DNA of 64,000 nucleotides, from the NCBI GenBank assembly GCA_964358315.1, contig CAYHOF010000001.1, forward strand, positions 39,916 through 103,915, in the 5' to 3' direction. The first letter of the stretch is position 1. Every line of letters begins with the position of its first letter. The notes beneath the pieces were generated by a model that did no database searches, was not told the DNA's origin, and saw only the letters and a program-made list of their open reading frames with translations. Below, piece after piece: positions 1-17,720 of this stretch. Both the position numbers and the translations under genes were made by a program. Source of the stretch: an uncultured Methanosarcinales archaeon (GTDB lineage: Archaea; Nanobdellota; Nanobdellia; Woesearchaeales; ARS49).

Positions 1-864
1 GAGCCCGAGCAACGCAGCGGCACCGAGGTCACGGTGAATGTCGTGGACGGCATCAGCGGCGCGCCCATCGACGCGGCGATCACGTTCGACTGCGGCGACG
101 AGAGCTGCCCGATCGGCGAGACCCAGAACGGCAAGATCGTCGCGCGCTTCCCGCGCTGCGCTGGCGGCGTCATCAACGCGATCGCTTCCGAGCGCTTCGG
201 CCATGCCGTGCCGCTCAACACGAACAACGAGGAAACGGCGAGCGTCACGGTCACGAGCGAACAGATCAAGGAGTTCGCGGCGGAATTCAAGCGCGTCCAG
301 TTCGTCAAGTCCGACGATGAATGGCGCCTCGACCCGGCGCCCACGTTCGCGCAAAAAGGCGACCAGTACGTCGTCATGCTCAACCGCGAAGGCGAGCCCG
401 ACGACCAGCCGTTCGCCGGCGCGGTGGAATACTGCAGCGGCGCCACACAGAACGATGGCGCGACCGCGCGCCTCGTGCCCGGCAACTACAGCATCAACGT
501 GCTCGTCCTCTACCACGAACCGCTCGTCTTCCCGCCGCAACGGCAGTGCGCAGACGACACGGGCCAGTATTGCTTCACGATCCCTGAAGAGCCGCTGCTC
601 TTCGGCAGGCCGGATGCGGACTGCACGTCGCCAGGCGCAGGCCAGCCAGGACCGTTCTTGAGCGGCGGCAGCGAGTACCGCTGGGAACTCACGCCACAGA
701 CATTCGCGTCAGGCAACACCGTCATCTTCAAGTCGCTCGTCGCCGCCATCGACAAGACGCCCGAGCAGGAGCGCGAACTCGAGGACATGGACATCGTGGC
801 CGACCTGCAGGACCGCTCCTCCGCGTACACCAAGATCCTCACGCCCGAGGTGGTGAACCGATGA
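1..864 (+). CDS. C-terminal part of an exported Cys-containing protein, paralog of 6755..8698 (5' end outside window)
   Basis: Frame open from base 1. ITFDCGDESCPIG..FPRCAGG, LVPGNYSINVLV, FLSGG and TVIFKSL align with FTLRCVTRDCALG..LPQACALP, LADGSASYDVTLL, QLTGG and SLVFHVL of 6755..8698. ATGA overlap with next gene. Confidence 0.75.
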   Translation, partial: EPEQRSGTEVTVNVVDGISGAPIDAAITFDCGDESCPIGETQNGKIVARFPRCAGGVINAIASERFGHAVPLNTNNEETASVTVTSEQIKEFAAEFKRVQFVKSDDEWRLDPAPTFAQKGDQYVVMLNREGEPDDQPFAGAVEYCSGATQNDGATARLVPGNYSINVLVLYHEPLVFPPQRQCADDTGQYCFTIPEEPLLFGRPDADCTSPGAGQPGPFLSGGSEYRWELTPQTFASGNTVIFKSLVAAIDKTPEQERELEDMDIVADLQDRSSAYTKILTPEVVNR

Positions 865-3800
865 GATGCCGCGAGATCGTCGCGCTCTGGATGGCCACCC
901 TCGTCGTCATGCTGCCGCTCGTGAGCGCGCAGGCCACGTTGCTCTCGGTGGACAAGTTCGAGGGTGACGACCACATCCGCGGGCTCGTCAAACAGTCAGA
1001 CACGCTCCACGTCGAAGTGCTCGCGTCCATCCCTGGCGACAGCAACGGCATCACGCGCGACCAACTCAGGATCACCGAAGGCACCAGGCAGACCATCGCG
1101 CAATCCTGCACGCAGGAGAGCGGCGAGGTCTACCGCTGCACGTACGAACAGTCGACGTTCGGCGGCGCCGGCGTCGTGCAGTTCCTCTTCACCCTCATCA
1201 AGGACGGGTTCTCGCCGACGGTGGCCAAGAGCGTCACCGAAGTGCTGAAAGTCGACGCGAGGGGCGCGGATGTGGTGGCGCTTGCGACAAGCAGCAACGT
1301 GCGCGGCAGCGGCGCGACCGTCGACTTCGTCGCGCAAGACACGCTGGACGGCCTGAGCACGTCGTCCTGCTCTGGCATCGAGCGCATCGAACTCTTCGAA
1401 GGCGACGCCACAGGATCCCCGATCGCCACAGTGACCGGCGCATCCTCGCCCACGCAATGCAGGCAGCAAGGCAGCTTCACCGACGTCACGTTCTCCGGCA
1501 GCGGCAGGCAACAGATCTGCGCCAAGGCATACGACACGTTGGGCAGGAACCTCGGGCCGCGCTGCGTCAGTGTCACCATCGACAACACCGCTCCCGACGT
1601 GTCGCGGCTCAACGTCACCGACAGCAACGGCGACGTGTACTTCTTCATCCCGGCGGGCGGCATCGTGGCCGACCTCATCGTCACGATCGTGGGCGACGAC
1701 ACGCGCGCCGACACCATACGCGGCGACCTGAGTTCTATCACCGGGCGCGCCACGGACAACAACGTGCCCCCCACCACCGTCTCGCAAGGCGCCATGAAAC
1801 TCGCCATCTGGCGCAACATCAACATCCGCTCGGCCGCGGGCTGCCAGATGACCGTGACTGCGCGCGACAGCGCCGGCAACGTCGTCACGCAGTCGCTCTC
1901 GTGCAACGTGCAGGACGACACGAGCGCGCCACGGCAACAGACGCTCACGAGCAGGATCCTCAACGGAAGCGGCGTGCCCATCATCGGCGTGGAGGGCACC
2001 GTCGTCGCCACCATCCAGGAAAGCGGTTCGGGACTCTCGAAACGCCGCGCCTACCTCGACGCATCGCAGCTGGGCCTGAGTAGTGCGCTCCAAGCATCCA
2101 ACTGCAGCGCGGTGGGCAGCGCGTGGACGTGCAGGTGGAACGTGCGGCCCACGCGCGCAGGCATCGTGCGCCTCAGCCTCAACCCTCTGACCACTGACGA
2201 CGTCGGCAACGCCATCGACCGATCATCGCTCACGCCCGTCATCTTCATCAGCGACCTCCAGCCGCCCACGGACCTGCGGATCATCAACGTCACCGTGCTG
2301 CACGGCGGCACGGACTTCGGCCAGTACCCGATCAAGGACGACATCGTCGAATACCGCATCAACGGTTCCTACTACACCAACGGGAGTGCGGACTTCAGCG
2401 CGCTCGGCGGCTCCAACGCCACGCCCTGCACGAGCCGTTCAGGCGCGGTGTGCGTGTTCTCGACACCCATCACGACCAGCGGCCCGATCAACGCCACCTC
2501 GACATTCACGTTCACCGACTCCGCAGGCAACAACGCCACCATCCAGCACGGCCTCTTCGTGTACGGCATCCGCAACGAGACCAGCCCCAACTACTGGACG
2601 AATTCCGTCACGTGCTCGCCCTCGCTCGTGGACCGTTCTGTCACCAGACTCATCAACGTGCGCCTCTACTGCCACATCGCGCTCAAGACAAGCACGCCTG
2701 ACGCGAGCACCGCCACCATCGCGTTCGACCCGCGCACGTGCACAGGCGACATCGGCGCCATCTCCGACCTTGGCCTCAGCAACAACTATGTGGGATCGAC
2801 CGAACCCGTCCTGTACACGCTCCTGCAAGCGCGCGACTTCAACATGACGTCGCTCGACTACACCTGCCCGCTGCGCATCACGACACGCGTGGGCGACTTC
2901 ATCAGCATCAACCACGAGGTCGAGAACGCATCCGTGCACATCGGCTTCTACTCACGACCGCAAGCAGACCTCAGCAAGAGCGTCCTTGCCAAGTTCGACA
3001 AGGCCAAGAAAGACGCGCTCAAGCTCGACACGCTCATCGGCTCCCTCAAGAAACTCTTCGAGGTCTTCGAAAAGATCTGCACCATCAGGGCAGCCATCGT
3101 CGACGCGCTCGCGGCCATGGACTCGGTCATGGCGAGCGTGGACTACGTCAAGAGCGGGCTTGAGTTGCAGAAAGCAGGCACTGAGCTCGAACTCAACGCG
3201 TGTGCACCATACTGCCCGACGCTCAATCTTTTGGTCAACGCGCAGAACGAGATTATCCGCGCTGCAGGACTCCAAAAATTTTTCGCGGGATTGAAAGTTC
3301 CGGATCCCCCCGGAATTATCGGGAAGCTACAAGTCATGCGACAGCAATTCGCGTCCCTTGACCCGCGTGCCAAAGCGCTGGACACGTCAGTGCAGACGAC
3401 GCAGCAGAACGCAGTCGTTGCGCAGAAGGCCGCCATGTTCCAGTGTGTCGCGACGCTGGCAGTCATCCAGGCGAGTCCGGCGGGTCTGACTGGTCTTGAC
3501 AAGGAATGTGTTGCAGCGATAGCGAAGATGAACAGGCTTATCGACGCGTCCGCCAAGCTCGAGGAATCCCGTCAGAAGATCTGCGGCTTCAAGGAAGGCA
3601 AGTTGCAAGAGGCGTTCACCAAGAGTATCGACAAGTTCGCAAAGCCCTTCTGCTCGTTCGTCAACTGCGACTCAGGACCATTGGATTCGGCCAACGGTCT
3701 CTTCGAGAAGACGTTCTCCGTCCTTGGCGGCGGGTTGCTCGACGTCAACGGATTCCTCACCAAGTCCACAGGCCTCAATCCGGGCATCAACAAGAAGGAG

Positions 3801-4331
3801 AGCCTGGTGTGGAGCGTCGCGTCGTTGTGTCTGCCCGGCATCATCAACAACATCGATAAGTACCGGCAGGTCAACTGCAACTACGCGCTGTGCATAGGAA
3901 AAGATGTCGTCGAGCGCGGCCTGCCCATCTCGCAGTGCGAGAAGAAGCGCGAGGCGCAGATGTGCGCGTTCGTGTGGGGCGAAGTCTTCAACGCCGTGCC
4001 CTTCGTCCACACGCTCGATGGTTGGGTCAACACGGTCAAGGAACTCGTGACCAACCCGCTCGCGGCCATGGCGTTCCTGCTGGGCCAGTACTGCAAGTCG
4101 TTCTGTGGCAAGGACCTATCGAAAATTTCTTCCACGCAATACAAGATCTGCGCGTTCCCCAAGACGCTCGATGCGCTTGCCAAAGTCATTAAGGACGTGC
4201 AAGGCATCATCCAGCCAAGCTTCTGGCAGTTCGGGCACGGCGCGTGCGACGACCTCAAAGCGCTCAAGCCCACGCCTAAGAAGGCAGGCACGGGCGCCGA
4301 AACAGGCGGCGCAGGGGTGAGGCCACAATGA
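861..4331 (+). CDS. Large secreted protein (1156 aa): Ig-like repeats plus Cys-rich helical C-terminal domain
   Basis: Signal peptide, repeated D-x-x-x-P / A-x-D-x-x-G-N Ig-like strands, C-terminal LCLPGIINNIDKYRQVNC segment, ATGA overlaps at both ends. Confidence 0.8.
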   Translation: MRCREIVALWMATLVVMLPLVSAQATLLSVDKFEGDDHIRGLVKQSDTLHVEVLASIPGDSNGITRDQLRITEGTRQTIAQSCTQESGEVYRCTYEQSTFGGAGVVQFLFTLIKDGFSPTVAKSVTEVLKVDARGADVVALATSSNVRGSGATVDFVAQDTLDGLSTSSCSGIERIELFEGDATGSPIATVTGASSPTQCRQQGSFTDVTFSGSGRQQICAKAYDTLGRNLGPRCVSVTIDNTAPDVSRLNVTDSNGDVYFFIPAGGIVADLIVTIVGDDTRADTIRGDLSSITGRATDNNVPPTTVSQGAMKLAIWRNINIRSAAGCQMTVTARDSAGNVVTQSLSCNVQDDTSAPRQQTLTSRILNGSGVPIIGVEGTVVATIQESGSGLSKRRAYLDASQLGLSSALQASNCSAVGSAWTCRWNVRPTRAGIVRLSLNPLTTDDVGNAIDRSSLTPVIFISDLQPPTDLRIINVTVLHGGTDFGQYPIKDDIVEYRINGSYYTNGSADFSALGGSNATPCTSRSGAVCVFSTPITTSGPINATSTFTFTDSAGNNATIQHGLFVYGIRNETSPNYWTNSVTCSPSLVDRSVTRLINVRLYCHIALKTSTPDASTATIAFDPRTCTGDIGAISDLGLSNNYVGSTEPVLYTLLQARDFNMTSLDYTCPLRITTRVGDFISINHEVENASVHIGFYSRPQADLSKSVLAKFDKAKKDALKLDTLIGSLKKLFEVFEKICTIRAAIVDALAAMDSVMASVDYVKSGLELQKAGTELELNACAPYCPTLNLLVNAQNEIIRAAGLQKFFAGLKVPDPPGIIGKLQVMRQQFASLDPRAKALDTSVQTTQQNAVVAQKAAMFQCVATLAVIQASPAGLTGLDKECVAAIAKMNRLIDASAKLEESRQKICGFKEGKLQEAFTKSIDKFAKPFCSFVNCDSGPLDSANGLFEKTFSVLGGGLLDVNGFLTKSTGLNPGINKKESLVWSVASLCLPGIINNIDKYRQVNCNYALCIGKDVVERGLPISQCEKKREAQMCAFVWGEVFNAVPFVHTLDGWVNTVKELVTNPLAAMAFLLGQYCKSFCGKDLSKISSTQYKICAFPKTLDALAKVIKDVQGIIQPSFWQFGHGACDDLKALKPTPKKAGTGAETGGAGVRPQ

Positions 4332-5899
4332 GAAGTCATGTCGTCACGCTCGTAATCATCGGCTTGCTCTTGATGCTGCCGATCGCGCTCGCAGAGGATC
4401 CGCCCATCATTCCCGTTCCCAAGCCCTCGGACATCGAAGCCATGTTGGCGAAGCAGTATGCCGACTCCTTCTATGACATCTACGTGATCAAGGCGGCAGG
4501 CCAGCAGCCAGAACTCGTTGCGAGCAATGTACGGCAAGGCCAGACTGCGACCACGGCCACCCCGGGGTATCAGTACTATGTCGTGGGGTACAATAGTGGT
4601 GATCGATCCAGCGCGGACCTCCTGTTCACGACAGAACCACAAGTGGCCACGGCCGCGACTTCTATGGCTGTGCAACAAGGATTCGTGTCGTTCGGTGGAG
4701 GGGAACCGTCGAATTTCGTGTCGGTGATCAACACGCCGAACTTCGCCGCAGGCACGCCCCGCACGCCCACCTCTCCGGTCGGAGGATCGGGTCCGATCGT
4801 CGCCCCTCCAGCCGGCGCGGCCGGTCCATCCGGTCCAAAAGTGGAGCCGTCGCCGTTCACGCTCGCACAGCTCGCCGAGCTTGCGGCGCAGGCCGCATCG
4901 CAGCCCGTGCCACAGTACGGCGTCTACACGAAGGACAAGGATGGCAATCCTGTGCTTTTTGCCAAGCTCGACGGGCCGCCTGACAAGAAGTATCTGGATG
5001 CGCATGACCTCAAGGCGGACGACGTCCTTCTCGGGCAGTACGAACTCGCTCCTGATGGCACGCTGACGTTCAAGGAAGGCCTCAAGATGCAGGTGGGCGC
5101 GGATGGCAAAGTCACGACGGCCGCGGATGCCACGTTGTCGGATGGCGACACTGCCGCGCTCGCGGAAGCATTGGCCAAAGGCCCGGCGCAGGACCCTGAT
5201 CGGCCAAAAGGTATCCTTTCGCCGCTCAACAAGGTCAACGAGTTCCTCAAGCAAGAATATCCTGGCCTTGCAGGCCTTGGCGGCTTGCTGCTTGGCGGCG
5301 CGCTCGATGACTGGAAGAAGACGGTCGACGACGCGTTCTGCAAGACCGTCGTTCTCGGCGGTCCGGAATGCCGCATCCAGGCCATCTGCGGCATCAGCCC
5401 CAAGAACGCGGGTGGCGATGGCGTGCTCGTGAGCCAGAAGTTCGACAACAGCACGCTCGAGATCCGCTTCATCGCGCACGTCGAAGGCGAGCGCTCGCCC
5501 GCGACGGTCACGCCTGACGGCGTCGCGCTGCACTTGTACAAGGTCACGTACGCCATCCGCAACCCGAACAGGCGCGAGCCCAACGCGTACCAGCTGCGCT
5601 TCTTCTATGAGGGCGGCAGTTTCGACTGGTTCCCCGACTTCCAGCCGTTCACGGGCGGCCAATACGTCAAGTTCATCGGCGACCAGGCCATCGTGGCGTA
5701 CAGCACGAAATTATACACGCGCGTCTGCCTCGTGTTCCGCGACACGGTCGAAGTCAACGGCGATCCCACAAGACAGGTGTGCAACGCGTTCGTCGAGTAC
5801 ACGGGCGGCGCGACCGCGCGCTACGGGCCCGGCACACCCACGACCGTGCAAGGCGGCGCCGCGGCAGGTCCTGCGAGGGCGCCTGGCACAGGGTTCTGA
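4328..5899 (+). CDS. Secreted hypothetical protein (523 aa) with Pro/Gly-rich linker
   Basis: Signal peptide ending ALA-E, translational coupling with upstream gene, beta-rich C-terminus. Confidence 0.75.
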   Translation: MRSHVVTLVIIGLLLMLPIALAEDPPIIPVPKPSDIEAMLAKQYADSFYDIYVIKAAGQQPELVASNVRQGQTATTATPGYQYYVVGYNSGDRSSADLLFTTEPQVATAATSMAVQQGFVSFGGGEPSNFVSVINTPNFAAGTPRTPTSPVGGSGPIVAPPAGAAGPSGPKVEPSPFTLAQLAELAAQAASQPVPQYGVYTKDKDGNPVLFAKLDGPPDKKYLDAHDLKADDVLLGQYELAPDGTLTFKEGLKMQVGADGKVTTAADATLSDGDTAALAEALAKGPAQDPDRPKGILSPLNKVNEFLKQEYPGLAGLGGLLLGGALDDWKKTVDDAFCKTVVLGGPECRIQAICGISPKNAGGDGVLVSQKFDNSTLEIRFIAHVEGERSPATVTPDGVALHLYKVTYAIRNPNRREPNAYQLRFFYEGGSFDWFPDFQPFTGGQYVKFIGDQAIVAYSTKLYTRVCLVFRDTVEVNGDPTRQVCNAFVEYTGGATARYGPGTPTTVQGGAAAGPARAPGTGF

Positions 5900-5900
5900 C

Positions 5901-6671
5901 ATGACGGCCTTCGACGAGTTCTTGCGCAGCTTCAAGGCCCTTGACTCGCGCTTCTTCATCACGTGGTTCATCGACGCGCTGTTCTACCTGAGCGTGGCGG
6001 TCATCATCGCGCTGTCGTACATCTTTTTCGGCTCGGTCTCGCAGGACCTCCTTGCGTTGCAGGACGCGGTGCCAAGCGAGGCGCTCGTGCCGCAGATCTA
6101 CGCACAACTGTACTCGATCCTGGGCGCGCTGCTCGTCATGATCGTCGCGGCGTACGTCGCGTACGTCATCTTCCAGGCAGCGCTGTGGAGCGTGGTGTTG
6201 CGGCAGCGCATCAGTGCCAGGTTCATGCTCCGCTACGCGCTCTACCTGCTCGTGTGCATGCCCATCATCATCGTGGCCTTCACGCTCGTCGTGCTCGTGT
6301 TCGGCGCGCTCTTCACGCTCTTCAACAGGTACCCGGGCGCGTTCAGCATAGGCGGAGGGTTCGTCCTGTCATGGCTCGCGTACGCCCTCCTCTTGCCGTT
6401 CTCCATCTTCCCCACGTATGCGTACTTCAAGGAAAAATCGGTGTGGAAAGGCGTCGGACGCATGACTTACCTGCTGCTTGGCACCGTGCCACGACTCTGG
6501 AAGCGCTACGCGCTCGCAGGCCTCGTGCTGCTCCTCGTCACGCAGGTCTACCGGCTGCTCAGCGGCCTCGATGCTTCGCTTGGCGGCTTCTTGCTGCTCA
6601 TCCTGATCCTCTCGCCCGTGCTTGCGTGGTTCAGGTTCTACATGGTCGGCGCGCTCGAAACCGCTCGCTAA
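5901..6671 (+). CDS. Polytopic membrane protein (about 6 TM), paralog of 16285..17085
   Basis: ATG at 5901 directly after upstream stop at 5899. Multiple hydrophobic segments. ORF-track start at 5607 is an overlap extension. Confidence 0.8.
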   Translation: MTAFDEFLRSFKALDSRFFITWFIDALFYLSVAVIIALSYIFFGSVSQDLLALQDAVPSEALVPQIYAQLYSILGALLVMIVAAYVAYVIFQAALWSVVLRQRISARFMLRYALYLLVCMPIIIVAFTLVVLVFGALFTLFNRYPGAFSIGGGFVLSWLAYALLLPFSIFPTYAYFKEKSVWKGVGRMTYLLLGTVPRLWKRYALAGLVLLLVTQVYRLLSGLDASLGGFLLLILILSPVLAWFRFYMVGALETAR

Positions 6672-6723: not shown

Positions 6724-6731
6724 TTTAAATA
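6724..6731 (+). promoter_or_regulatory. Archaeal TATA box (TTTAAATA) for the second surface module
   Basis: AT-rich box in GC-rich context, 24 nt before ATG 6755, consistent with a leaderless transcript. Confidence 0.65.
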
Positions 6732-8698: not shown

Positions 8699-11600
8699 GA
8701 CGCCTGCTACTCGTTGTGTTATTAGTGCTGTGTGCGACCGGCGTGAGCGCACTCACCATCAGCCATGATCCCAATCCTGTCGCCGAGGTCGGCAACGACT
8801 ACTTCGTCGTCGAATGGACGACAGACGTGGCGGCGATCAGCAACATCGGCTACGGCACCACCACGCCGCCACAACAGCAACGCCAGACCAACACGCTCGT
8901 CACCACGCACCGGCTGCGCGTGGACGCGCTCGCGCCAGGCACGGAGTACTTCTTCCAGATCCTCGCGGTCGCGCAAGGCCAGAGTAAGATCGACAACAAC
9001 AACGGCCAGTATTATCGCGTCATCACCGGCGCAGGCGCGGACACAGCACCGCCCCTCATCACCAACGTGACGATCACCAAGCCTGATGACGTGAGCGCCA
9101 TCGTGCGCTGGACCACCAACGAGCCCGCAAGCACGCTCGCGTGGTACGGCATCGGCGCGACCACCACTGCCGCGCAAGGCCAAGGCCCGAGCACCACGCA
9201 CGAGGTCCGCCTGCAGACGCAACGCAACCAGCTTTACCAAGTCATCGTGGGCAGCTGCGACCGCTTCCGCAACTGCGCGAACTCGACAAGCGTCGGCTTC
9301 TATTCGGGCGTGGGCGCGCTGCCGCTCAACGTCAGCATCCCTGCCGCCACAAAGACAGGACGCGTCGACATCAGGGGCACAACAGTTGTCGGCGCGCAGG
9401 TGCGCGTCATCGTCAACGACAACCCCGCACGTGCGCTCATCGTGGGCGCGGACGGCTCCTTCCTCTTCAGCGACGTCGACATGCCCACGCCGACCACGGC
9501 CGTCATCGTCACTGCCCGCGACGCGAGCGGCACGACGCAACAACAACAGTTCAGCGTGGTCGCCGACAGCGTGCCCCCGATCTTCACGCTCGCGCAACCA
9601 ATCCCTGATTATACGGCAGACCCCATCCTCACGCTCAGCGGCACCGTCAACGAGCCAGTCACGATCACGTTCGGCATCGTGCAACAAGGTGCGGCGCCGC
9701 CGCGCGTCAGCGGCCTGCGCGCGTCACGCATCACACAAAACACCGTCGAGCTCGAATGGACGCTCATACGCGACGTCACGCACTACGCGGTCTACCGCAA
9801 CGCGGTGCGCGTCGGCGTCGTGAGCGCGCCCCGCTTTTCGGACTCCGTCAGCTCCGGCGTGCAGTACAAGTACAAAGTCACCGCCATCGGCGCGACATGC
9901 CAAGAAGGCCCCGGCGCCGAGACCGACGTCACCACGGCATCCGGCGGCCTGCTCGTCAACCAGACACCGACAGAAACCCCGCTCGTGTGCGGCCCCGAGC
10001 GCCAAAGCATCACCGCGACCGGACCGTTCAACATCCCCATACGCCTCCAGGAAGGCCAGAACCGCGTCGTGATCGAGGCCACCGACCGTGCGGGCAACGT
10101 CGTGCGCATCGTCAACATCACGACCGTCGACACCAAGCCCCCGCAGATCCTCGAGCACAACCTCAACCAGCTCAGCCCCACGTACACGTCGAGCGTCGAA
10201 GTCAAGGGCAGGCTCAACAAGCAAGGCACCGTGCTCATCACGGTCAATAAGGACAAGCCCATCGTGGTGCTCACCGACCGCAACGGCTCGTTCAGCAAGG
10301 AGATCTCGTTGTCGCGCGACCCCACCCTCAAGACAACGAAAAGCCCGATTTCGGTCAGCGGCGAGACCGCGGAAGGATGGATCAACCAGGTCACACTCGA
10401 GGCATCGGACGCGGCCGGACGCAAAGTGTCGGTCGGCCCGCTCCCGATCATCTACTCGTTGTGCGGCTTCGGCTCGACGTTCTCCATCGAGCTCGGCAAG
10501 CCGTTGCCTGACGTTCTCACGCCGCGCCTGATCCTGCAAGGCGTTCAGCAGGCGGGCTTCTCGCTCAACGCGTCCTATCGCGGCGGCAGGCAGCTCTCGC
10601 GGCCAGGCACGGTCACGATCCGCAAGCTCACGCTCAGCGCGACCGAACTCAAGAAGTACGACCACGACTGGATCAACCTCGCCTTCCTCAACAACCCGCG
10701 CAAGCCCACAGAAGGGTTCGTGCAGCTCACGTTCGTCCCGCAACAGACGAACCGCGGCACGCGCAACGTCTCGCTGAGCAAGCTCGAAGAGGGCCTCAGC
10801 GACCATCGAAAGGGCGAGTGCAAAGTGCCGGGCTTCGGCTGCGTGCGCATGCTGCTCGAGATCGAGGTGCGCGCGCAGGAGAAGATCCCCAAGGTCTTCG
10901 GCGACACGCGCATCCAGCGCACGGCAGAGGACTTCATCCTCAACGACGTGAGCCAGCGCACGTGCGTGGACGTCGAACTCCAGATCGACAAGGCACTGCT
11001 GTTACAAAAGCACATCCCCAAGAAATTCCTCGAGGCGAGCGTGAGCTTCCTTGACAGCACGATCGAGGCGATCGACACCGTGGTCGAGCCCATGATCACG
11101 ATCGGCACGTACACCACGTACGGCTGCATGGCCATGAACGCCGTGCTCTACGGCATGTTCTTCAGCGAACGCCTCACGTGCGACTTCGCCAGCATCGAAG
11201 CCAAAGGCCCTGTGGCCGCGGCGTTCGAGGCCGTGATCGGCAAGGGCAACGCGATCCACGACGTCGCCGAAGTCGGCCTGTGCGAGAGCGCGTTCAAGCC
11301 CACAGGAACGACCGGCCCCACGACGACCATTCCTTCAAGCCCCACGCCCGATGCGGCGGCAGACACGCAGAAAGCGTACCTGGCATGCAAGAAATGCCAG
11401 GAGACCATCGCGCGCCGCAAGGCGCTCGAAGCCAAGATGCGCGTCGTGTGCGACCGTGTCGCCTGCCCCAGCGCTCCCACGTTGCAGACCTACATCCGTG
11501 ACAACCAGAAGAACAACCCGCTCAAGCAAGTCGTGCTGCCAGGCCTTGCGCAAGTGCAGAAGCCCATCAACAACGTGCAAGGACTCATCTATCGTGGCAA

Positions 11601-14600
11601 CAGCTGCGCGTTCAAGGGCGAAGGAGGACAGAAGCTGAGCGTCGGCTATTCAAGCGGCGGCGCGCCACCCTGCCAGTCGACCATCACGTTCGACAAGGTC
11701 ACTGGCATCACGAAGATAGAATGCTACAATGAGAAAGGACCTGGGGGCACGTTGCGGCCTGCGACGCCCGAAGAGCAGCTCGCGGTGCGCTCCATCTTCA
11801 ACGCCAAGTACGCGGACAAGTCCACGTTGCCGACGACCAACACGGTCAATCTCGACGTGAGCTTCGGCGACAAGGGCATCAAGGAGATCTACCTGGACTA
11901 CATCAACAAGCACAAGGACGACAAGGAGTTCACGCTCGACGAAAAAGTCGCGCTCAGCGGACCTGACAAGGTCTCGTGCGCCGGCCTGCACCCCGCGAAC
12001 CCTGAATGCTGCGGCTACGAATACTACAAGGAATGGGGCAGCGCGTGCGGCATCCCCGGGGTCTTCGAGACGTTCGACGAGCTCAAGGAAAGTTCGTGCC
12101 TCGCGGCGCAGAACGCCAACCAGATCGGCGACTTCGAGCGCGCGAGCGGCAAGCAGTGCAAGAGCCTCTTCAACGCGGTTGCGGGCTTCTGCGAGCCCGA
12201 CAGCGGCCAGCCTGTCGGTGAGGACCTGCGCACCACCATCCGCTACCATCCCGACTACCAGAACACGCTCGCCTCGCCCGACCTCAACGAGATATACGTC
12301 CGTATCGAGCCGGTCGGGCCTGACAACGACCAGTGGCTCATCGCGCGCGGCTACATCAGCAAGACCGTCGTGCGGCAGCAGACCACCGACCCTGCCAAAC
12401 TCGCCAAGATCGAGCGCGAACAGACGGTCGCCGAGCGGCTGCGCGCGAGCAAGCAGACGACGGACCCCAAGAAGTTCCACCTCAACGCAGACCTCGAGTT
12501 CGTGCCGGACGAGGATGGCGACCTCACGCCGTTCTTCACCGAGGCCGCTTCCGCGTCCAACCCCGAACTCGCGCAACAAGTGCGCGACCTCAAGCCCGGA
12601 CAGATACCGCCAGGATTCGCCGTCGCGCTCTGCAGGCACGCCGTCAATCCCGCCGAGTGCGCGGGCGCGCCCGCACGCCGCGTCTATGCGGACATAAAAT
12701 CACGCATCGGCGTGAGCGACAAGATCTACATCGTGCGTCCTGACCGGGACGGCATCCTGCGCAGCACGCAATGCATGTGCCTGCCAGCGGTCACGAGCTA
12801 TCTCACATTCTGGAAGAACGTGCTTGGCGCGGTGCGCAACTGCTTCCAGACCGTGCGCGTGACAGGCGACGCGTCGGCCGGCGTGTGCCAGGCGGTGCTG
12901 AGCCAGTACGTGTGCGACATGCTCTTCGACGTCATGTCCTGCTTCACACAGAAATACAGCACGCCGGGCGCCGGCGCATCGTTCGGCGGCCGCGGCGGCA
13001 TCGGCGACGTGCTCGGCGCGCTCAGCAAGGCAGGCGGCGACATGCAACAAAGCATCAACTCGCGCTACGGCGACACGGCGCTCTGGCGCAGCATGTTCGT
13101 CGAGCGCAAGCTCGTGCACAGCATCTGCGCGTTCGCGTTCACCGGCACCTGGGACCTTGACGTCGCGGGCGTGTTCAAGCAGACGGTGCAGGACATCCCG
13201 CTCAAGAGCCAGGCATTCCTCTACCCTGCCGAGCGGCGCTTCATCAGCTACAACCCGATCACGCGCCCAAGCGGCCTGCCCACGTTCACCTACCACTTCG
13301 GCGTCGGCCTCGTCGCAGGCCAGGACTTGCGCTACCAGCTCGAACTCAAGTGCAGCAACAACCTGCGCTGCGAGCCGCGCGACGGCTTCGAGAACGGCAA
13401 GTGCGACTGCACCGGCCGCACCGAACAGCGCATCCTCGTCGGCGCGCCAGAACTCGGCAGCGGCTCGCTCAAGAAGAACGACATCCTCAACACCGAAGTG
13501 TTCTACACCATCCAAGGCGGCGACCCGGCGAGCGCGGTGCGTTACGACACCGCCATCCTGAGCTGGGAAGCGCTCGACCCAGGCAGCGGCCAGGTCACGC
13601 GCGACAAGAAGGAGATACCGATCCACCTCATCGGCTCGCGCCCGCCCAACTTCTGCCGCTTCGACCCGATCGGGCTCGCGTTCCGTTGCGACATCGGCAT
13701 CGGCGACTACACCGGCGCGCGCTTCATCCCGCCGATCATCGCATCCTACCCGCAGGCGCAGGACGCCTTCATCATCAACGACGAGATGACGTTCAAGGTC
13801 CCGGTGCTGCTGCAATACCCGCAGAGTCTCAAGGACCAGGCTGCCTGCATCGGCGCGTGCCCGTACACCAAGTTCATCAATTACGAAGTCAAGAACCAGC
13901 TCGGCCAGCCCATCATCGAACTGCGCAAGCCCGACGAAGTGGGCCGCAGTTCGCAATTGCGCGTCGAGAAGAACGGCGACGACACGCTCACGATCAGGCT
14001 CAATACGGGCGGCAGCAGGCGGATCAAGAAGTCCGATTTCGGCTTCACGTCCACCGCCGCGAGCCCGGTGCGGTTCGTGGATTCCGAGAGCGCACGCTTC
14101 ACCACGCCGCGCCCCACCTCGCCGCTCCAGATCGGCGTCATCCTTGTCGTGACAAAGACAGCTGCCGGCAGCTACAAGTGGGAATTGTTCGACACCGTCA
14201 ACGACGGCGAGAAGGCCGGCTCGACCGAGTCCAGCTACATCGAGCGCGCGCCTGACAAGGAAAGCAGCGGCCAGTGGGGCTGGTACCGCAAGGGCGCAGC
14301 CAGACCTGAAGGCAGCGGCCAGCTCGTGCAAGGCGACACGGTCACGACCAAGAACCCCGAGATCACGTTCAAAGTCCCGCCTTCCTTCGACCTCAAGCGT
14401 CCGGCCGAGTACTACCTGCCTGCCACGCCGATCACGGGAGCCATCGATGACATCTGCCAGAAGCTCGGCACGACGCCCGCGAAATGGAAGGTCACGTTCA
14501 AGATGTTCGACAGCACGCAAGTCGCGGGCGGCACGGCGTACGAGTACAACCCTGCCCAGCCCACCGTCGACCCGTCCTCGGGCGAGGTGCAGGAGCAGAC

Positions 14601-16281
14601 CGTCGAATTCAACGTGCTGTGCAGCGACAAGTACGTGGGTGGCGGCGGCGCGATACGCGAATGCCCGCCCAACAGCGCGCTCCAATTGACCGGCACGCAG
14701 TGCTTCTGCGGCGGGCCTGCCGAACTCGCACAGGCACGTGAGACGCTCAAGACCGACCCGCAAGCGCCGATCCTCAACTGTGGCGAAGGCGCGCCAGTGC
14801 AGCCAGGCGGCCTCTACTGTGTCTATAGGGACGAGGCAAACCCCTCTGCGGGACGCTACTGCAGCAACACGCCAGGAAGCGGCAGCGTCACGACCGGCGG
14901 TCAGACGTTCGCGCCCGCGAAGGTGACGTACTCGTCGAAGGCGCGCGAGACGAGCGCGCTGCAAGTCACCGACGTGACATCGACCATCGCATCGGAAACG
15001 TTCGAGCTGATCCCCAACAAGTACGCGCTGGTCTACGAGTACCGCCGTGCGGACCTCCCCTCAGGGACGTACTCCGCGACCGCGACCCTTGACGGCGCGC
15101 CCCTGACAGTGCAGGTCGGCACCAACGACCCGACCAAGATCATCTTCACCATCGACCTCGTCGAATCCTTGGGCCGGATCCCGGTGGGGCCGGGCGGCTT
15201 GCACACGGTCGTGCTGGGCATGTCGCGCGACCGCTCCCCGATCGGCAAGGGGCCGGAATTCCACTACACCATCGTTTCGCCCGTGCGGCTCGAGCATCGT
15301 GACGTGTGCCAGTCGTGCGCCGCCATCGACGCGTACCTGCGCGGCATCCTCACGTTCTCCTACGACGATGAACCGACCGACGACCTTTCCACGGGCGTGT
15401 CGCACAAGCTCGTCATCGCAGGCCAGGAATTCCCCAACTTCGATGTGACGAGCGAGTCGAGCAAGACCTCCTTCAAAGGGTATGTTGATGCGTACCTCTT
15501 CCACCTCAACGCGGTCGGCGCCACGGGCGGCGCGTCGTCCAGCCCGCCTTCATCCACGACGCCGTCGACAGGTTCGTCCCCGTCCACGTCCCCTTCGACC
15601 ACCACGCCATCCACCACCACGTCAAGCACGCCCACCATCAATCCATCATTCTGGTATTACCAGTCCGCGAGAGTGTACCAGAGCGGCGTGACGCCCGAGT
15701 TCGACCCTGACACGCGTTCTTCGACGCTGACCACGTTCGACACCGTGCAAGAATGGTGGCCCTCTGCCTACGACATCAACCTGGTCTATCCTGCCAGCGC
15801 GCTCAGCGGCATCGCGTCGGTCGCGGTGCGGCTCGACAGCAGGCCGCCCGTGCCTGCGGTGCTGAGCCCGCGTGATGCCAACATCATCGTCTACGAACGC
15901 GCAGGCGTGCCCTTCTCGCTCGTCCAGGAACCGGACGTCATCCATACCCTGTCGTTCGACTTCAAGGACGCGTCAGGAACGGTGGTCAAGCGTTCGCCCA
16001 CCATCCGCTTCAAGGCAGTGCCTCCTGCCGTCGTCAAATGCAGGCAGGACGATGCGGCATGCGGTCTTGCGCGCCAGACCATCCAGGCACAGGACCCGCC
16101 CGATGACCTGCACAAGGTCATCATTTCCACCAGCGTCCCGCAGGGCGAGCACCCCACGATATTCCTGCTCGGCCACGAATGGAGGCCGTTCGACCATGCG
16201 ACGCAAAGCGACCAGGTCGCGCGGCTCTACGACGAACAGTATTACCCGTACGCGCAGAGCGTGGGCATCGCGACGGCATAG
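8695..16281 (+). CDS. Giant secreted surface protein (2528 aa): FN3/Ig-like N-terminal repeats, Cys-rich core, duplicated C-terminal module
   Basis: Signal peptide. Two W-T-T-(D/N)...Y-G...H-x-(L/V)...Y FN3-like domains and several A-x-D-x-A-G Ig-like repeats. Many Cys. Ser/Thr/Pro linker near 15520-15640. Confidence 0.85.
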   Translation: MRRLLLVVLLVLCATGVSALTISHDPNPVAEVGNDYFVVEWTTDVAAISNIGYGTTTPPQQQRQTNTLVTTHRLRVDALAPGTEYFFQILAVAQGQSKIDNNNGQYYRVITGAGADTAPPLITNVTITKPDDVSAIVRWTTNEPASTLAWYGIGATTTAAQGQGPSTTHEVRLQTQRNQLYQVIVGSCDRFRNCANSTSVGFYSGVGALPLNVSIPAATKTGRVDIRGTTVVGAQVRVIVNDNPARALIVGADGSFLFSDVDMPTPTTAVIVTARDASGTTQQQQFSVVADSVPPIFTLAQPIPDYTADPILTLSGTVNEPVTITFGIVQQGAAPPRVSGLRASRITQNTVELEWTLIRDVTHYAVYRNAVRVGVVSAPRFSDSVSSGVQYKYKVTAIGATCQEGPGAETDVTTASGGLLVNQTPTETPLVCGPERQSITATGPFNIPIRLQEGQNRVVIEATDRAGNVVRIVNITTVDTKPPQILEHNLNQLSPTYTSSVEVKGRLNKQGTVLITVNKDKPIVVLTDRNGSFSKEISLSRDPTLKTTKSPISVSGETAEGWINQVTLEASDAAGRKVSVGPLPIIYSLCGFGSTFSIELGKPLPDVLTPRLILQGVQQAGFSLNASYRGGRQLSRPGTVTIRKLTLSATELKKYDHDWINLAFLNNPRKPTEGFVQLTFVPQQTNRGTRNVSLSKLEEGLSDHRKGECKVPGFGCVRMLLEIEVRAQEKIPKVFGDTRIQRTAEDFILNDVSQRTCVDVELQIDKALLLQKHIPKKFLEASVSFLDSTIEAIDTVVEPMITIGTYTTYGCMAMNAVLYGMFFSERLTCDFASIEAKGPVAAAFEAVIGKGNAIHDVAEVGLCESAFKPTGTTGPTTTIPSSPTPDAAADTQKAYLACKKCQETIARRKALEAKMRVVCDRVACPSAPTLQTYIRDNQKNNPLKQVVLPGLAQVQKPINNVQGLIYRGNSCAFKGEGGQKLSVGYSSGGAPPCQSTITFDKVTGITKIECYNEKGPGGTLRPATPEEQLAVRSIFNAKYADKSTLPTTNTVNLDVSFGDKGIKEIYLDYINKHKDDKEFTLDEKVALSGPDKVSCAGLHPANPECCGYEYYKEWGSACGIPGVFETFDELKESSCLAAQNANQIGDFERASGKQCKSLFNAVAGFCEPDSGQPVGEDLRTTIRYHPDYQNTLASPDLNEIYVRIEPVGPDNDQWLIARGYISKTVVRQQTTDPAKLAKIEREQTVAERLRASKQTTDPKKFHLNADLEFVPDEDGDLTPFFTEAASASNPELAQQVRDLKPGQIPPGFAVALCRHAVNPAECAGAPARRVYADIKSRIGVSDKIYIVRPDRDGILRSTQCMCLPAVTSYLTFWKNVLGAVRNCFQTVRVTGDASAGVCQAVLSQYVCDMLFDVMSCFTQKYSTPGAGASFGGRGGIGDVLGALSKAGGDMQQSINSRYGDTALWRSMFVERKLVHSICAFAFTGTWDLDVAGVFKQTVQDIPLKSQAFLYPAERRFISYNPITRPSGLPTFTYHFGVGLVAGQDLRYQLELKCSNNLRCEPRDGFENGKCDCTGRTEQRILVGAPELGSGSLKKNDILNTEVFYTIQGGDPASAVRYDTAILSWEALDPGSGQVTRDKKEIPIHLIGSRPPNFCRFDPIGLAFRCDIGIGDYTGARFIPPIIASYPQAQDAFIINDEMTFKVPVLLQYPQSLKDQAACIGACPYTKFINYEVKNQLGQPIIELRKPDEVGRSSQLRVEKNGDDTLTIRLNTGGSRRIKKSDFGFTSTAASPVRFVDSESARFTTPRPTSPLQIGVILVVTKTAAGSYKWELFDTVNDGEKAGSTESSYIERAPDKESSGQWGWYRKGAARPEGSGQLVQGDTVTTKNPEITFKVPPSFDLKRPAEYYLPATPITGAIDDICQKLGTTPAKWKVTFKMFDSTQVAGGTAYEYNPAQPTVDPSSGEVQEQTVEFNVLCSDKYVGGGGAIRECPPNSALQLTGTQCFCGGPAELAQARETLKTDPQAPILNCGEGAPVQPGGLYCVYRDEANPSAGRYCSNTPGSGSVTTGGQTFAPAKVTYSSKARETSALQVTDVTSTIASETFELIPNKYALVYEYRRADLPSGTYSATATLDGAPLTVQVGTNDPTKIIFTIDLVESLGRIPVGPGGLHTVVLGMSRDRSPIGKGPEFHYTIVSPVRLEHRDVCQSCAAIDAYLRGILTFSYDDEPTDDLSTGVSHKLVIAGQEFPNFDVTSESSKTSFKGYVDAYLFHLNAVGATGGASSSPPSSTTPSTGSSPSTSPSTTTPSTTTSSTPTINPSFWYYQSARVYQSGVTPEFDPDTRSSTLTTFDTVQEWWPSAYDINLVYPASALSGIASVAVRLDSRPPVPAVLSPRDANIIVYERAGVPFSLVQEPDVIHTLSFDFKDASGTVVKRSPTIRFKAVPPAVVKCRQDDAACGLARQTIQAQDPPDDLHKVIISTSVPQGEHPTIFLLGHEWRPFDHATQSDQVARLYDEQYYPYAQSVGIATA

Positions 16282-16284: not shown

Positions 16285-17085
16285 ATGAAGACGCTTTTCA
16301 CACCGTTGCAGAAAGCATTCGCAGGCATGCGCAAGCGTCCGGCGCTCGTCGCGCTCGCAATCCTGGTCGACGTGCTCTTCCTCGTGTCATTCGGCTTCGT
16401 GTATGGCTTGTTGTTCGCGGAGACGGCGGACCATCTCGACGCGCTCAACACGATCCTTGCCGAGCAGACCGCGCAGTTCGTCAGCACGCAGGACGCGACC
16501 ACGTTGACAGCAAATCCAGATATCGATCTGCATTACGCGGGCGTGGTGCGCGGCATCGGCCTCATTTTACTCGTCCTCTATATACTGTGGTCGCTCTCGC
16601 AAGGCGTCAACTGGTGGGTCGCGCACACGCTGGAGGAGCGCACCGTGCCCTTCATGCGTTTCATCATGCGGTCCTTCATCGTCAACCTGGCATGGGTGGC
16701 GGTCTTCGTCGCCATCCTCTTCGCCATCGCGTGGCTCTCGCAACAAAGCCTGCTCGCGCCCGTCCCGCTCATCGGTCCCGGCGCCTTCGAGAGCGCCACC
16801 CTCGTCCTTGTCGTCGTCCTGCACTATTTCATGATCGTCTCCTACGCGTACCTCACGCACGCGCGCCCGCTACGCACGGCGCTGTCGCACGCCGTTCGTG
16901 ACGCGCGCCGCTTCGTGCCGGTGTTCATCATGGGCGCGGTCGGCATCATGCTCGCAGGATACCTCATCATCACGATATCCCCCATCAATTACGTGGCAGG
17001 CATCGCGATACTTTTGGTCATCATGCTGCCATGGTTGGCATTGAGCAGGACGTGGGCATCAGCGCTCGCGCATTCGACACCATGA
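16285..17085 (+). CDS. Polytopic membrane protein, paralog of 5901..6671
   Basis: LVDVLFLVS vs FIDALFYLS; SQGVNWW..FMRFIMR vs FQAALWS..ARFMLRY; similar length and TM pattern. Confidence 0.8.
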   Translation: MKTLFTPLQKAFAGMRKRPALVALAILVDVLFLVSFGFVYGLLFAETADHLDALNTILAEQTAQFVSTQDATTLTANPDIDLHYAGVVRGIGLILLVLYILWSLSQGVNWWVAHTLEERTVPFMRFIMRSFIVNLAWVAVFVAILFAIAWLSQQSLLAPVPLIGPGAFESATLVLVVVLHYFMIVSYAYLTHARPLRTALSHAVRDARRFVPVFIMGAVGIMLAGYLIITISPINYVAGIAILLVIMLPWLALSRTWASALAHSTP

Positions 17086-17720
17086 CGACGCTCGACACAG
17101 TGGTGGAAAAGAAGATCAAGCCCATGCTTGACGAGGCCATGCGGCGCTACCTGGGCGTGCGCATCGAGGAGCTCACCACCGACGTGTCGGATCGCCTGCG
17201 CCGCAGCGCGCTCCTCGACATCCCGGTCGACGTGAACGTCCCGTTCAAGAAGGCCAAGCTCGCGTTCAAGAAGAATTACCTCATCCGCCTCTTGCAATTG
17301 CACTTCGGCAACATCGCAGAGGTCGCGCGCCTCTCGGGCGTGGATCGCAGGAGCGTGCACCGTCTCGTGCGCCAAAGTCCGGTGGTGGAACGCGCCCGCA
17401 AGGAACTGCACCGCCGCGACTTCTACGTCTCCGACGAGGTCAGCACCATCATCCAAGAGTCCGCCGAGCATTACAAAGGGTCGCTCGCGCCTGAGAAGTA
17501 CAGGGCATTCTATGACCAGGTGCCCATCATGGGCAAAGTCATCGCCAAGGAACTCCCGCTCGAACTCCCCACGCTCGAGCAGGCGGAACGCGCGTGGGAA
17601 CGCCGCTACTTCGAGGCCGCGCTCAAGGAATTCGGCCCTTCCCCTGTCGCCGTGGCGCGCAAGATAGGCCTGCGGTACGAGACGCTGCACCGCAAGCTCA
17701 AAACGCACGGCATCCAGTGA
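17082..17720 (+). CDS. Protein with two Fis-type (HTH_8-like) helix-turn-helix domains
   Basis: ATGA overlap at 17082. FKKNYLIRLLQLHFGNIAEVARLSGVDRRSVHRLV and WERRYFEAALKEFGPSPVAVARKIGLRYETLHRKLKTHGI both match the NtrC/Fis C-terminal HTH pattern. Confidence 0.8.
   Translation: MTTLDTVVEKKIKPMLDEAMRRYLGVRIEELTTDVSDRLRRSALLDIPVDVNVPFKKAKLAFKKNYLIRLLQLHFGNIAEVARLSGVDRRSVHRLVRQSPVVERARKELHRRDFYVSDEVSTIIQESAEHYKGSLAPEKYRAFYDQVPIMGKVIAKELPLELPTLEQAERAWERRYFEAALKEFGPSPVAVARKIGLRYETLHRKLKTHGIQ

What the first reader, a model, noticed from the sequence alone, without database searches (positions are those of the whole stretch)
1..17720. Duplicated giant surface-assembly module: class III pilin-like protein + Cys-rich Ig giant + polytopic membrane protein
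Seen: two colinear gene sets, A(1-864)-B(861-4331)-C(4328-5899)-D(5901-6671) and A'(6755-8698)-B'(8695-16281)-D'(16285-17085). The second set has its own TATA box. A/A' and D/D' are recognisable paralogs. B and B' share a Cys-rich helical core: LCLPGIINNIDKYRQVNCNYALC vs MCLPAVTSYLTFWKNVLGAVRNC, followed by C-x8-C segments. Genes are coupled by ATGA overlaps. Established: RAQ-type class III signals are processed by archaeal prepilin peptidases, and DPANN cells are often host-attached. Inference: a heteromeric, disulfide-rich surface machine for host attachment or membrane contact with no characterised counterpart I recognise. C may be the split-off equivalent of the region downstream of the B' core.
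Basis: partly seen in the sequence, partly recalled or inferred. Interest (0 to 1): 0.8.

Follow-up and report, generated by a model that had tools for sequence, protein, structure and literature searches.

The report
Conserved Woesearchaeota surface-protein gene module, duplicated
A small groundwater archaeon carries two tandem copies of a gene set (a pilin-like anchored protein, a giant secreted protein and a small membrane protein) that is kept by most of its relatives yet matches no described system, making it a candidate for how these tiny cells build their surface or hold on to other cells.

Summary
Window 1-17085 carries two colinear, same-strand gene sets, A-B-C-D and A'-B'-D', at the stated coordinates. 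Gene A starts 1.3 kb upstream of the window.

- **Paralogy.** A/A': BLASTP E 5e-28 full length. D/D': profile-profile probability 99.3%. B/B': one 65-column Cys-rich motif only, probability 95%. C as a split-off piece of B' is not supported.
- **Organism and spread.** Relatives' records are mostly titled Woesearchaeota. The A'-B'-D' trio recurs in most relatives searched: A' family in 254 of 301 genomes, B' core in 170 of 301. It also appears in other orders of the class, in genomes of about 0.5 Mb. The upstream A-B-C-D set was found in 20 of 28 relatives' loci with room, and not in six 20-kb loci from other orders.
- **Known families.** None of the four families matches Pfam, NCBIfam or PDB sequences beyond Ig-like domains. 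Fold searches returned only generic beta-sandwiches.
- **Signal.** A/A' have an invariant [KR][GA]Q-hydrophobic N-terminus. An A24 prepilin peptidase gene is present here and in 97 of 101 class genomes.

My best reading is a membrane-anchored extracellular contact or envelope complex. Assembly and function are inferred, not shown. S-layer-like and pilus-tip roles remain open.

The parts
1..864 (+). A: C-terminal 287 aa of a 731-aa class-III-signal protein. The gene starts 1332 nt upstream of the window, at G000:C1:38584.
   Evidence: Full A vs A' BLASTP E 5e-28. Window part vs A' profile E 2.4e-11.
861..4331 (+). B: 1156-aa exported protein. It has an N-terminal signal-like segment, a beta-rich N-terminal two thirds and a helical Cys-rich C-terminal third.
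   Evidence: 22 full-length relatives with 37 invariant columns, 18 of them Cys. No Pfam or NCBIfam hit.
3777..3974 (+). B residues 973-1038: the Cys-rich core motif shared with B' (S..LCLPGII.N..K.RQ..C.Y..C).
   Evidence: hhalign probability 95%, E 3.6e-8 against B' 1344-1410.
4328..5899 (+). C: 523-aa exported protein. It has a signal-like N-terminus, a low-complexity Pro/Ala/Gly linker and a conserved beta-rich C-terminal domain.
   Evidence: Family found between B and D in relatives: 30 ORFs; 19 of 28 loci with room.
5901..6671 (+). D: 256-aa membrane protein with about six hydrophobic helices.
   Evidence: Profile-profile probability 99.3% with D'.
6724..6731 (+). TTTAAATA, a TATA-box-like element 24-31 nt upstream of the A' start codon.
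   Evidence: Sequence only. Function not tested.
6755..8698 (+). A': 647-aa protein. Order of parts: RRAQ + hydrophobic helix (res 9-35), Pro-rich break, a 360-aa alpha/beta ectodomain with no clear known fold match, two transthyretin/CnaB-like beta-sandwiches.
   Evidence: AF2 model pLDDT 88.1. Fold searches. Family present in 254 of 301 genomes at E<=1e-30.
8695..16281 (+). B': 2528-aa exported giant. Order of parts: fn3/Ig-like N-terminal region, conserved Cys-rich core, beta-sandwich, lineage-variable C-terminal quarter with a Ser/Thr/Pro linker.
12712..13194 (+). B' residues 1340-1500: the Cys-rich helical core, the best conserved part of the cluster.
   Evidence: Conservation profile. 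9 invariant Cys across the 431-residue piece. Core found in 170 of 301 genomes. AF2 confidence is low here.
13207..13704 (+). B' residues about 1505-1670: Ig/macroglobulin-like beta-sandwich following the core.
   Evidence: AF2 pLDDT mostly above 85. Generic beta-sandwich matches, Z up to 8.7.
16285..17085 (+). D': 266-aa membrane protein with about six hydrophobic helices, no Cys; paralog of D.
   Evidence: D family follows B' in 28 of 34 loci with room.
17082..17720 (+). Fis-type HTH (HTH_8) protein. An in-frame ATG overlaps the D' stop as ATGA. Possibly co-transcribed; membership in the module is doubtful.
   Evidence: Pfam HTH_8 E 3.7e-10. ATGA. Relative found in only 3 loci.

Best explanation
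The region encodes a duplicated form of a three-gene cell-surface module that is conserved across this class of small-genome (DPANN) archaea.

**Components of each module**
1. A/A': a 650-730-aa protein with a prepilin-type (class III) signal and anchor helix. It is followed by a Pro-rich break, a Cys-stabilised alpha/beta ectodomain with no convincing fold match, and two Ig-like sandwiches.
2. B/B': a giant Sec-exported protein built of Ig-like/fn3 arrays around a family-specific Cys-rich helical core. Its C-terminal part varies between lineages. Module 1 adds a further exported protein, C.
3. D/D': a six-helix membrane protein of about 260 aa.

**Most likely mechanism**
- The genes are expressed as one or two tightly coupled operons.
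- A/A' is trimmed after the [KR][GA] by the genome's single A24 prepilin peptidase. It stays in the membrane as a stalk rather than forming a filament.
- D/D' is the membrane platform or assembly partner.
- B/B' (with C) has no anchor of its own. It is held on A and D and displays a conserved core with a variable distal part.
- Together they form a non-filamentous, envelope-anchored complex that makes contact with other cells (a host) or surfaces.

**Shown:** gene layout, paralogy, conservation, export and anchor signals, presence of the peptidase, absence of known families.

**Inferred:** cleavage, complex formation, disulfides, and the adhesion or contact role.
For: **Layout and coupling**
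- ATGA overlaps or 1-3 nt spacers join the genes.
- In 53 relatives' loci holding both genes, B' follows A' on the same strand. The overlap is exactly 4 nt in 16 loci and the gap lies within +/-20 nt in 33.

**Conservation**
- A' relatives occur in 40 of 41 nearest genomes.
- The A' family occurs in 254 of 301 genomes of the phylum sample, all at least 90% complete, at E<=1e-30.
- The B' core occurs in 170 of 301 genomes, almost always as a single match per genome.
- Six loci from other orders were examined, from genomes of 0.5-0.9 Mb:
  - A' is present in 6 of 6.
  - A giant ORF with the core lies directly downstream in 4 of 6 by my HMM run. In the other two, the core match lies downstream on the same strand.
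  - The D family follows in 3 of 6.
- The family forms 725 clusters at 50% identity among 1.84 billion proteins.

**Surface location**
- B, B' and C have signal-like N-termini and no other strong transmembrane segment. D and D' have about six.
- fn3 and Ig-like domains are present.

**Class III signal**
- The family consensus is KRGQITxFIIIG, with Gln invariant in 53 of 53 sequences.
- One A24 peptidase gene is present here and in 97 of 101 class genomes.

**Anchor rather than filament**
- The AF2 model shows a 27-residue helix (9-35) followed by a lower-confidence Pro-rich break before the globular domain.
- The cluster holds no ATPase or platform gene.
- This genome's canonical short QxSxEF pilin lies beside a type IV filament ATPase on another contig.

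**Variable distal part**
- B' residues about 2000-2528 are covered by only 7-51% of relatives. The core is covered by 95-99%.
Against: - No direct evidence that the proteins bind each other.
- No expression data.
- The helical core of B' folds with low confidence (pLDDT 40-70), so its nature is unknown.
- N-glycosylation sequons in B' are at the genome median: 3.2 against 3.0 per 1000. This is not what is expected of a heavily exposed archaeal surface protein. B and A' are higher (10.4 and 10.8 per 1000).
- Near-universal, single-copy retention in very small genomes fits a housekeeping envelope role as well as, or better than, a host-specific adhesin.
- The class III motif as I state it is recalled, not computed by FlaFind. 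No Pfam or NCBIfam pilin or class III family matches: 0 of 53 A' members.
- 47 of 301 genomes gave no A' match at E<=1e-30 and 131 of 301 gave no B' core match at E<=1e-5. Some of these are in the same family and order.
Confidence: 0.4

Rival explanations
1. A two-component cell-envelope (S-layer-like) coat. B/B' would form the outer canopy and A/A' the membrane-anchored stalk, in the manner of SlaA/SlaB of Sulfolobales. D/D' would help anchoring or assembly.
For: - Near-universal and single-copy in the class, and kept in genomes of about 0.5 Mb.
- The architecture is a large exported protein without an anchor next to an anchored protein with Ig-like sandwiches.
- SlaB (8qox_B) is among the best matches of the first A' sandwich: Z 8.9, rmsd 2.1, 81 residues aligned. 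It is tied with many unrelated beta-sandwiches.
- A preprint on Nanobdella states that no DPANN S-layer protein has been determined (10.1101/2023.10.27.564410, passages read).
Against: - B and B' hold 34 and 55 Cys. As I recall, archaeal S-layer proteins are usually Cys-poor.
- B' sequon density is at the genome median.
- The A' anchor is N-terminal and prepilin-type, not a C-terminal helix or PGF-CTERM.
- The C-terminal quarter of B' is lineage-variable.
- No match to any S-layer family in Pfam or NCBIfam.
- No expression data to test abundance.
Confidence: 0.25
2. A pilus-tip or minor-pilin complex. A/A' would be processed as bulky modular pilins and incorporated at the tip of a type IV filament built by machinery encoded elsewhere. 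They would carry B/B' as a non-pilin adhesin, as bacterial minor pilins carry PilY1.
For: - Prepilin-type N-termini with invariant Gln.
- Two ATPase-plus-platform loci and a third ATPase are present in the genome, with an A24 peptidase.
- The first 200 residues or so of A' are shared with many 250-350-aa proteins in these genomes.
- Modular pilins with grafted domains are known (PMC8179133; search listing and abstract only).
Against: - The cluster is not linked to any ATPase or platform gene.
- A/A' N-termini lack the QxSxEF pattern of this genome's short pilins, one of which lies 3.6 kb from an ATPase.
- The predicted N-terminal helix is short and followed by a Pro-rich break, not a long continuous alpha-1 helix.
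- D/D' has no counterpart in pilus systems.
- No PilY1/PilC family hit.
- A recent census reports type IV filament systems as not widespread in DPANN (PMC13705601, passages read). The A' family is found in 254 of 301 genomes.
Confidence: 0.15
3. The neighbours do not form a machine. They would be independently acting exported proteins (for example substrate-binding or degradative surface proteins, with a transporter-like membrane protein), kept together only by co-regulation.
For: - No binding evidence.
- Class III signals also occur on non-pilus surface proteins such as sugar-binding proteins (recalled).
- A surface subtilase and PKD-domain proteins flank the cluster, so this is a general surface-protein neighbourhood.
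Against: - The A'-B'-D order, strand and tight spacing are conserved across orders whose proteins share only about 25-35% identity.
- The whole set was duplicated as a unit.
- No invariant polar residue set suggestive of catalysis or transport is seen in D. The only nearly invariant residue besides the start Met is one Trp.
- No enzyme family hits.
Confidence: 0.15

Closest known systems
Archaeal class III signal peptide (prepilin-like) surface proteins, processed by A24 peptidases (PibD/EppA/FlaK type)
   Same: A/A' have a short basic N-terminus, [KR][GA] then an invariant Gln and a hydrophobic helix. The peptidase gene is present.
   Different: No Pfam or NCBIfam pilin or class III family match. 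The proteins are 650-730 aa, with an ectodomain that found no convincing fold match. There is a Pro-rich break after a short helix. They are not linked to filament assembly genes.
Bacterial minor-pilin / PilY1 tip adhesin operons, and modular pilins
   Same: A pilin-like protein is encoded next to a large Sec-exported, anchorless adhesin-like protein. The logic is a conserved base carrying a variable contact part.
   Different: There is no sequence or fold relation. No PilC/PilY1 domain was found. The extra six-helix membrane protein D has no counterpart. The resemblance is recalled, not tested beyond Pfam.
SlaA/SlaB two-component S-layer of Sulfolobales
   Same: A large anchorless exported protein is paired with a membrane-anchored stalk protein rich in Ig-like sandwiches. 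SlaB is a tied top match of one A' sandwich (Z 8.9).
   Different: The anchor sits at the opposite end of the protein. The proteins here are Cys-rich. B' has median sequon density. There is no family-level similarity. Lattice formation is unknown.
Gram-positive sortase pilins and MSCRAMM B-repeats (SpaA, GBS52, SdrD)
   Same: The two C-terminal beta-sandwiches of A' resemble CnaB/transthyretin-like domains: Foldseek E 4e-7 to 1e-4, TM 0.12-0.19 on the query length; VIA Z 6-9.
   Different: The similarity is domain-level only. A' has no LPXTG-type C-terminal sorting signal (sequence). The N-terminal 400 residues are unmatched.

Membership tests
Archaeal type IV pilin / class III signal peptide protein | Basic N-terminus, [KR][GA] cleavage site followed by a hydrophobic helix (FlaFind-type motif, recalled) | tested here: met
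   A has KKAQVTVFIIIGLLLV and A' has RRAQLTVLIMIGLLLVV. The family consensus is KRGQITxFIIIG, with Gln invariant in 53 of 53. FlaFind itself was not run.
Archaeal type IV pilin / class III signal peptide protein | Cognate A24 prepilin peptidase encoded in the genome | tested here: met
   PF01478 at G000:C7:33538-33867, 49.6 bits against a cut-off of 26.5. Found in 97 of 101 class genomes, 91 above the cut-off.
Archaeal type IV pilin / class III signal peptide protein | Match to a curated pilin, archaellin or class III signal family | tested here: not met
   No Pfam or NCBIfam hit for A or A' at E<=0.1 apart from one chance-level DUF4878 hit. 0 of 53 A' family members hit any Pfam family at E<=0.001.
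Archaeal type IV pilin / class III signal peptide protein | Long continuous N-terminal alpha-1 helix packing into a filament core; small globular head | tested here: inconclusive
   The AF2 model shows helix 9-35, then a break (block 31-40 pLDDT 65), then helix 47-73 and a 600-aa multidomain body. This is a prediction only.
Archaeal type IV pilin / class III signal peptide protein | Genomic linkage to assembly ATPase and platform protein | tested here: not met
   T2SSE and T2SSF genes lie on contigs C3, C28 and C33, not in C1 near the cluster.
Archaeal type IV pilin / class III signal peptide protein | Actual cleavage by the peptidase and assembly into a filament | not testable with these tools
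   This needs biochemistry or a filament preparation.
Archaeal S-layer (SlaA/SlaB-like or other) | Sequence or fold membership in a known S-layer family | tested here: inconclusive
   No Pfam or NCBIfam S-layer family hit. SlaB appears only as one of many tied beta-sandwich matches (Z 8.9). S-layer proteins diverge fast, so this does not exclude the role.
Archaeal S-layer (SlaA/SlaB-like or other) | C-terminal membrane anchor or PGF-CTERM on the lattice or stalk protein | tested here: not met
   B, B', C, A and A' have no C-terminal hydrophobic segment in a Kyte-Doolittle scan.
Archaeal S-layer (SlaA/SlaB-like or other) | Very high expression; regular lattice | not testable with these tools
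   No RNA run was listed for this sequence. No imaging is available.
Sortase-assembled Gram-positive pilins | C-terminal LPXTG-type sorting signal followed by a hydrophobic tail | tested here: not met
   A' ends ...YGEQYQTQLAPEAP with no such signal. The resemblance is limited to CnaB/transthyretin-like sandwiches.
PilY1/PilC-type pilus tip adhesin | PilC/PilY1 C-terminal beta-propeller domain | tested here: not met
   No such Pfam hit in B, B' or C at E<=0.1, nor in three long B' relatives.

The most novel reading that the evidence does not exclude
A'-B'-D' would be the core of a previously undescribed, class-wide surface apparatus of Woesearchaeota, Pacearchaeota and their relatives. It would be built from four orphan protein families: a prepilin-processed stalk, a giant protein with a unique Cys-rich helical core, and a dedicated six-helix membrane platform. 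The apparatus would mediate physical contact, and perhaps exchange, with partner cells. The second module in Woesearchaeales would broaden or alter partner range.
Probability: 0.3. Interest if true: 0.85.

Novelty: new variant of a known kind. Interest (0 to 1): 0.6.

Why it matters
**Open question.** Woesearchaeota and Pacearchaeota are among the most widespread uncultivated archaea. How they build their surface and contact other cells is unknown. A preprint I read in passages states that no DPANN S-layer protein has been determined.

**What this finding offers.**
- The gene trio takes up about 9-11 kb in genomes as small as 0.5 Mb and is kept by most lineages sampled, so it is probably important to these cells.
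- It gives a concrete, sequence-defined target for proteomics, labelling and cryo-tomography in enrichments.
- It adds four well-populated orphan families for structural work, including a Cys-rich core domain that current structure prediction does not resolve.

Tried and rejected
**Paralogy by pairwise BLASTP.** B/B', C/B', D/D' and the window part of A against A' were all not significant. They were superseded by profile comparisons.

**C as a split-off part of B'.** hhalign puts the best alignment at the proposed place, but at E 0.012-0.19 and probability at most 3.6%. This is not accepted.

**Complex prediction.** B 900-1156 with C 290-523 gave no verdict (median score 0.02, runs 0.49/0.00/0.02). 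It is not evidence either way.

**Family and sequence searches that found nothing useful**
- Pfam and NCBIfam on all proteins.
- Pfam on family members: D 0 of 47, A' 0 of 53, B 3 of 23 Ig-like hits plus one stray hit.
- PDB sequence searches with profiles. A': one hit at E 0.11. B' core: none. D: two designed helical proteins.
- ESM Atlas: no usable hit for B, and scores of at most 0.83 for the B' core.

**Fold searches**
- A' model against PDB (Foldseek, VIA wide) and against viral models.
- B' core model against PDB (Foldseek, VIA wide).
- Both gave only generic Ig, transthyretin or macroglobulin-like sandwich matches.
- The A' N-domain (47-410) was barely tested because the sandwiches fill the lists. 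Its only row is a gp25-like protein (2ia7): Z 6.5, rmsd 3.2, 88 residues aligned.

**Other searches**
- The first search for related loci with the single protein found nothing. The alignment-based scan worked.
- Sequencing runs: no RNA holder listed. Four DNA runs of one groundwater study hold the stretch.
- N-glycosylation sequon density does not single out B'.

**Literature.** Searches and passages of five papers gave no description of this cluster. Supplementary tables were closed, for example the Pacearchaeota proteins detected in PMC11537232. They might list members of these families.

Full report
**What is in the sequence.**
- The window is G000:C1:39916-103915, in a 1.4-Mb assembly of 47 contigs, 96.5% complete.
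- Gene A is cut by the window edge. The whole gene is C1:38584-40779 and encodes 731 aa.
- ATGA overlaps join A/B, B/C and A'/B'. C/D and B'/D' are 1 and 3 nt apart. A further ATGA links the D' stop to an in-frame ATG of the next gene, an HTH_8 protein.
- TTTAAATA lies 24-31 nt before the A' start.

**Paralogy.**
Full-length A against A' gives E 5e-28 over 435 residues, starting at the shared N-terminus. The A'-family profile matches A colinearly (E 6.1e-67) and the in-window part alone at E 2.4e-11.
- *D/D'.* I built two profiles defined by position only: 27 ORFs ending just before A' and 32 ORFs after B'. Nine members that fitted neither rule were dropped. They align over 240 columns with probability 99.3%, E 1.3e-20.
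- *B/B'.* The profiles share one significant stretch, B 973-1038 with B' 1344-1410 (probability 95%, E 3.6e-8). A giant from another order matches both the B' core and B profiles, which bridges the two.
- *C/B'.* C does not significantly match B'.

**Who has it.**
- Relatives fetched from public genomes are mostly titled Woesearchaeota, Nanoarchaeia, Nanoarchaeota or Nanobdellota. About half of the rows carry the automatic label 'uncultured Methanosarcinales archaeon' (56 relatives' loci out of 92 pattern matches).
- A' relatives were found in 40 of 41 nearest genomes.
- The A' family was found in 254 of 301 phylum-sample genomes at E<=1e-30.
- The B' core was found in 170 of 301 at E<=1e-5. 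Matches are strong in the same order. In other orders of the class they are weaker and restricted to the Cys-rich core, always inside ORFs of about 1100-3200 aa.
- These tallies include two genomes flagged unpublished (G010, G264).

**Synteny in the 56 public loci.**

| Feature | Loci with it | Loci with room |
|---|---|---|
| B'-core ORF downstream of A' | 46 | 53 |
| D family after B' | 28 | 34 |
| D family directly upstream of A' | 33 | 46 |
| A upstream | 20 | 28 |
| B upstream | 20 | 28 |
| C upstream | 19 | 28 |

- Six loci from other orders show A' followed by the giant and, in three of them, D. No A-B-C-D set was seen within 20 kb.
- So A'-B'-D' is the older, widespread unit. The first set is an additional copy with C, seen mainly in the window's own order.
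- Public sources name B' relatives only 'hypothetical protein' or 'fibronectin type III domain-containing protein'.

**What the proteins look like: A'.**
- The AF2 model has mean pLDDT 88.
- It shows an N-terminal helix (9-35), a Pro-rich break, an alpha/beta domain (47-410) and two beta-sandwiches (427-517 and 520-620).
- All eight Cys of A' are invariant or nearly so in the family.
- Fold searches matched only the sandwiches, to transthyretin, CnaB, SlaB and Gram-positive pilin domains (Z at most 9.4). The searches against viral models gave the same picture.

**What the proteins look like: B'.**
- Only the sandwich of the B' core piece is well modelled (residues about 1505-1670). It gives generic Ig or macroglobulin-like matches.
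- The Cys-rich helices are of low confidence.

**What the proteins look like: other features.**
- B, B' and C have signal-like N-termini and no strong later transmembrane segment. D and D' have about six hydrophobic helices and no conserved polar set.
- No Pfam, NCBIfam or PDB-sequence relative exists for A/A', the B/B' core, C or D/D'.

**Class III signal.**
- The A' family N-terminus is KRGQITxFIIIG with an invariant Gln.
- The genome has about a dozen ORFs with this type of N-terminus, including one more in the window at 28399-29412 on the minus strand. It also has two short QxSxEF pilins.
- It encodes one A24 peptidase, two ATPase-plus-platform loci and a third ATPase, all on other contigs.
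- The peptidase is found in 97 of 101 class genomes.
- The cleavage motif itself is recalled from the FlaFind literature and was not computed.

**Interpretation.**
- The data support a conserved, exported and membrane-anchored protein set made of families that are not yet described.
- I favour a non-filamentous, anchored contact or adhesion complex (confidence 0.4). The reasons are the short helix with a Pro-rich break, the lack of linkage to filament machinery, the anchorless giant with a variable distal part, and the dedicated membrane protein.
- An S-layer-like envelope role (0.25) fits the near-universal single-copy retention. It fits poorly with the Cys content and with the median sequon density of B'.
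- A pilus-tip role (0.15) and mere co-regulated neighbours (0.15) remain possible.
- Binding, cleavage, disulfides and function are all inferred.

**What I could not do.**
- No RNA data were available.
- Supplementary tables of papers were closed.

**Literature.** Searches and passages read in PMC13705601, PMC11329633, PMC11537232, 10.64898/2026.05.13.725050 and 10.1101/2023.10.27.564410 gave no description of this cluster.

Noticed in passing
window 17031-17720 (likely start 17082): A Fis-type HTH_8 protein. An in-frame ATG at 17082 overlaps the D' stop codon as ATGA. A relative follows D' in the same-genus locus L017 and lies on the opposite strand in L020. It may be a regulator riding on the operon.
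   Followed up: partly
window 28399-29412 (-): A 337-aa protein with the same N-terminus as A/A' (RRAQITVFIILGL). It is one of about a dozen such ORFs of 124-1069 aa in the genome, and it shares the first 200 residues or so with A.
   Followed up: partly
window 42000-46000: G+C drops to 0.45-0.47 against about 0.6 around it. The stretch holds three tandem ORFs of about 228 aa on the same strand (42875-43561, 43664-44344, 44433-45119). It may be an island or a repeated gene family.
   Followed up: no
G000:C1:34961-38479 (upstream of the window; L003:4961-8479): A 1172-aa subtilase (Peptidase_S8, E 1.9e-37) with an I9 propeptide, Ig/cadherin-like domains and a C-terminal membrane helix. It has 56 N-x-S/T sequons (47.8 per 1000, far above the genome's 95th percentile of 12.1). 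It lies directly before gene A here, but not in most relatives.
   Followed up: partly
window 17868-19109: A 413-aa protein with an N-terminal hydrophobic helix and PKD/Big_9/cadherin-like domains. It is another surface protein just downstream of the cluster and is also present in L017.
   Followed up: no
G000:C4:2120-3211 (L004): A third D-family paralog (E 1.8e-6 to D' by protein search; strong to the family profile). No A- or B-like gene was noted beside it. The same contig carries giant ORFs of 2944 and 2158 aa.
   Followed up: partly
G000:C3:47909 and C3:51532-54011: A canonical short pilin (RKGQISVEF..., 142 aa) lies 3.6 kb upstream of a type IV filament ATPase and two platform genes. 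This is probably the organism's actual pilus locus, and it is separate from the cluster studied.
   Followed up: partly
window 22318-24732 (-): An 804-aa fusion of an AMP-binding enzyme, a phosphopantetheine attachment site and an acyltransferase domain. This is unusual in such a small archaeal genome.
   Followed up: no
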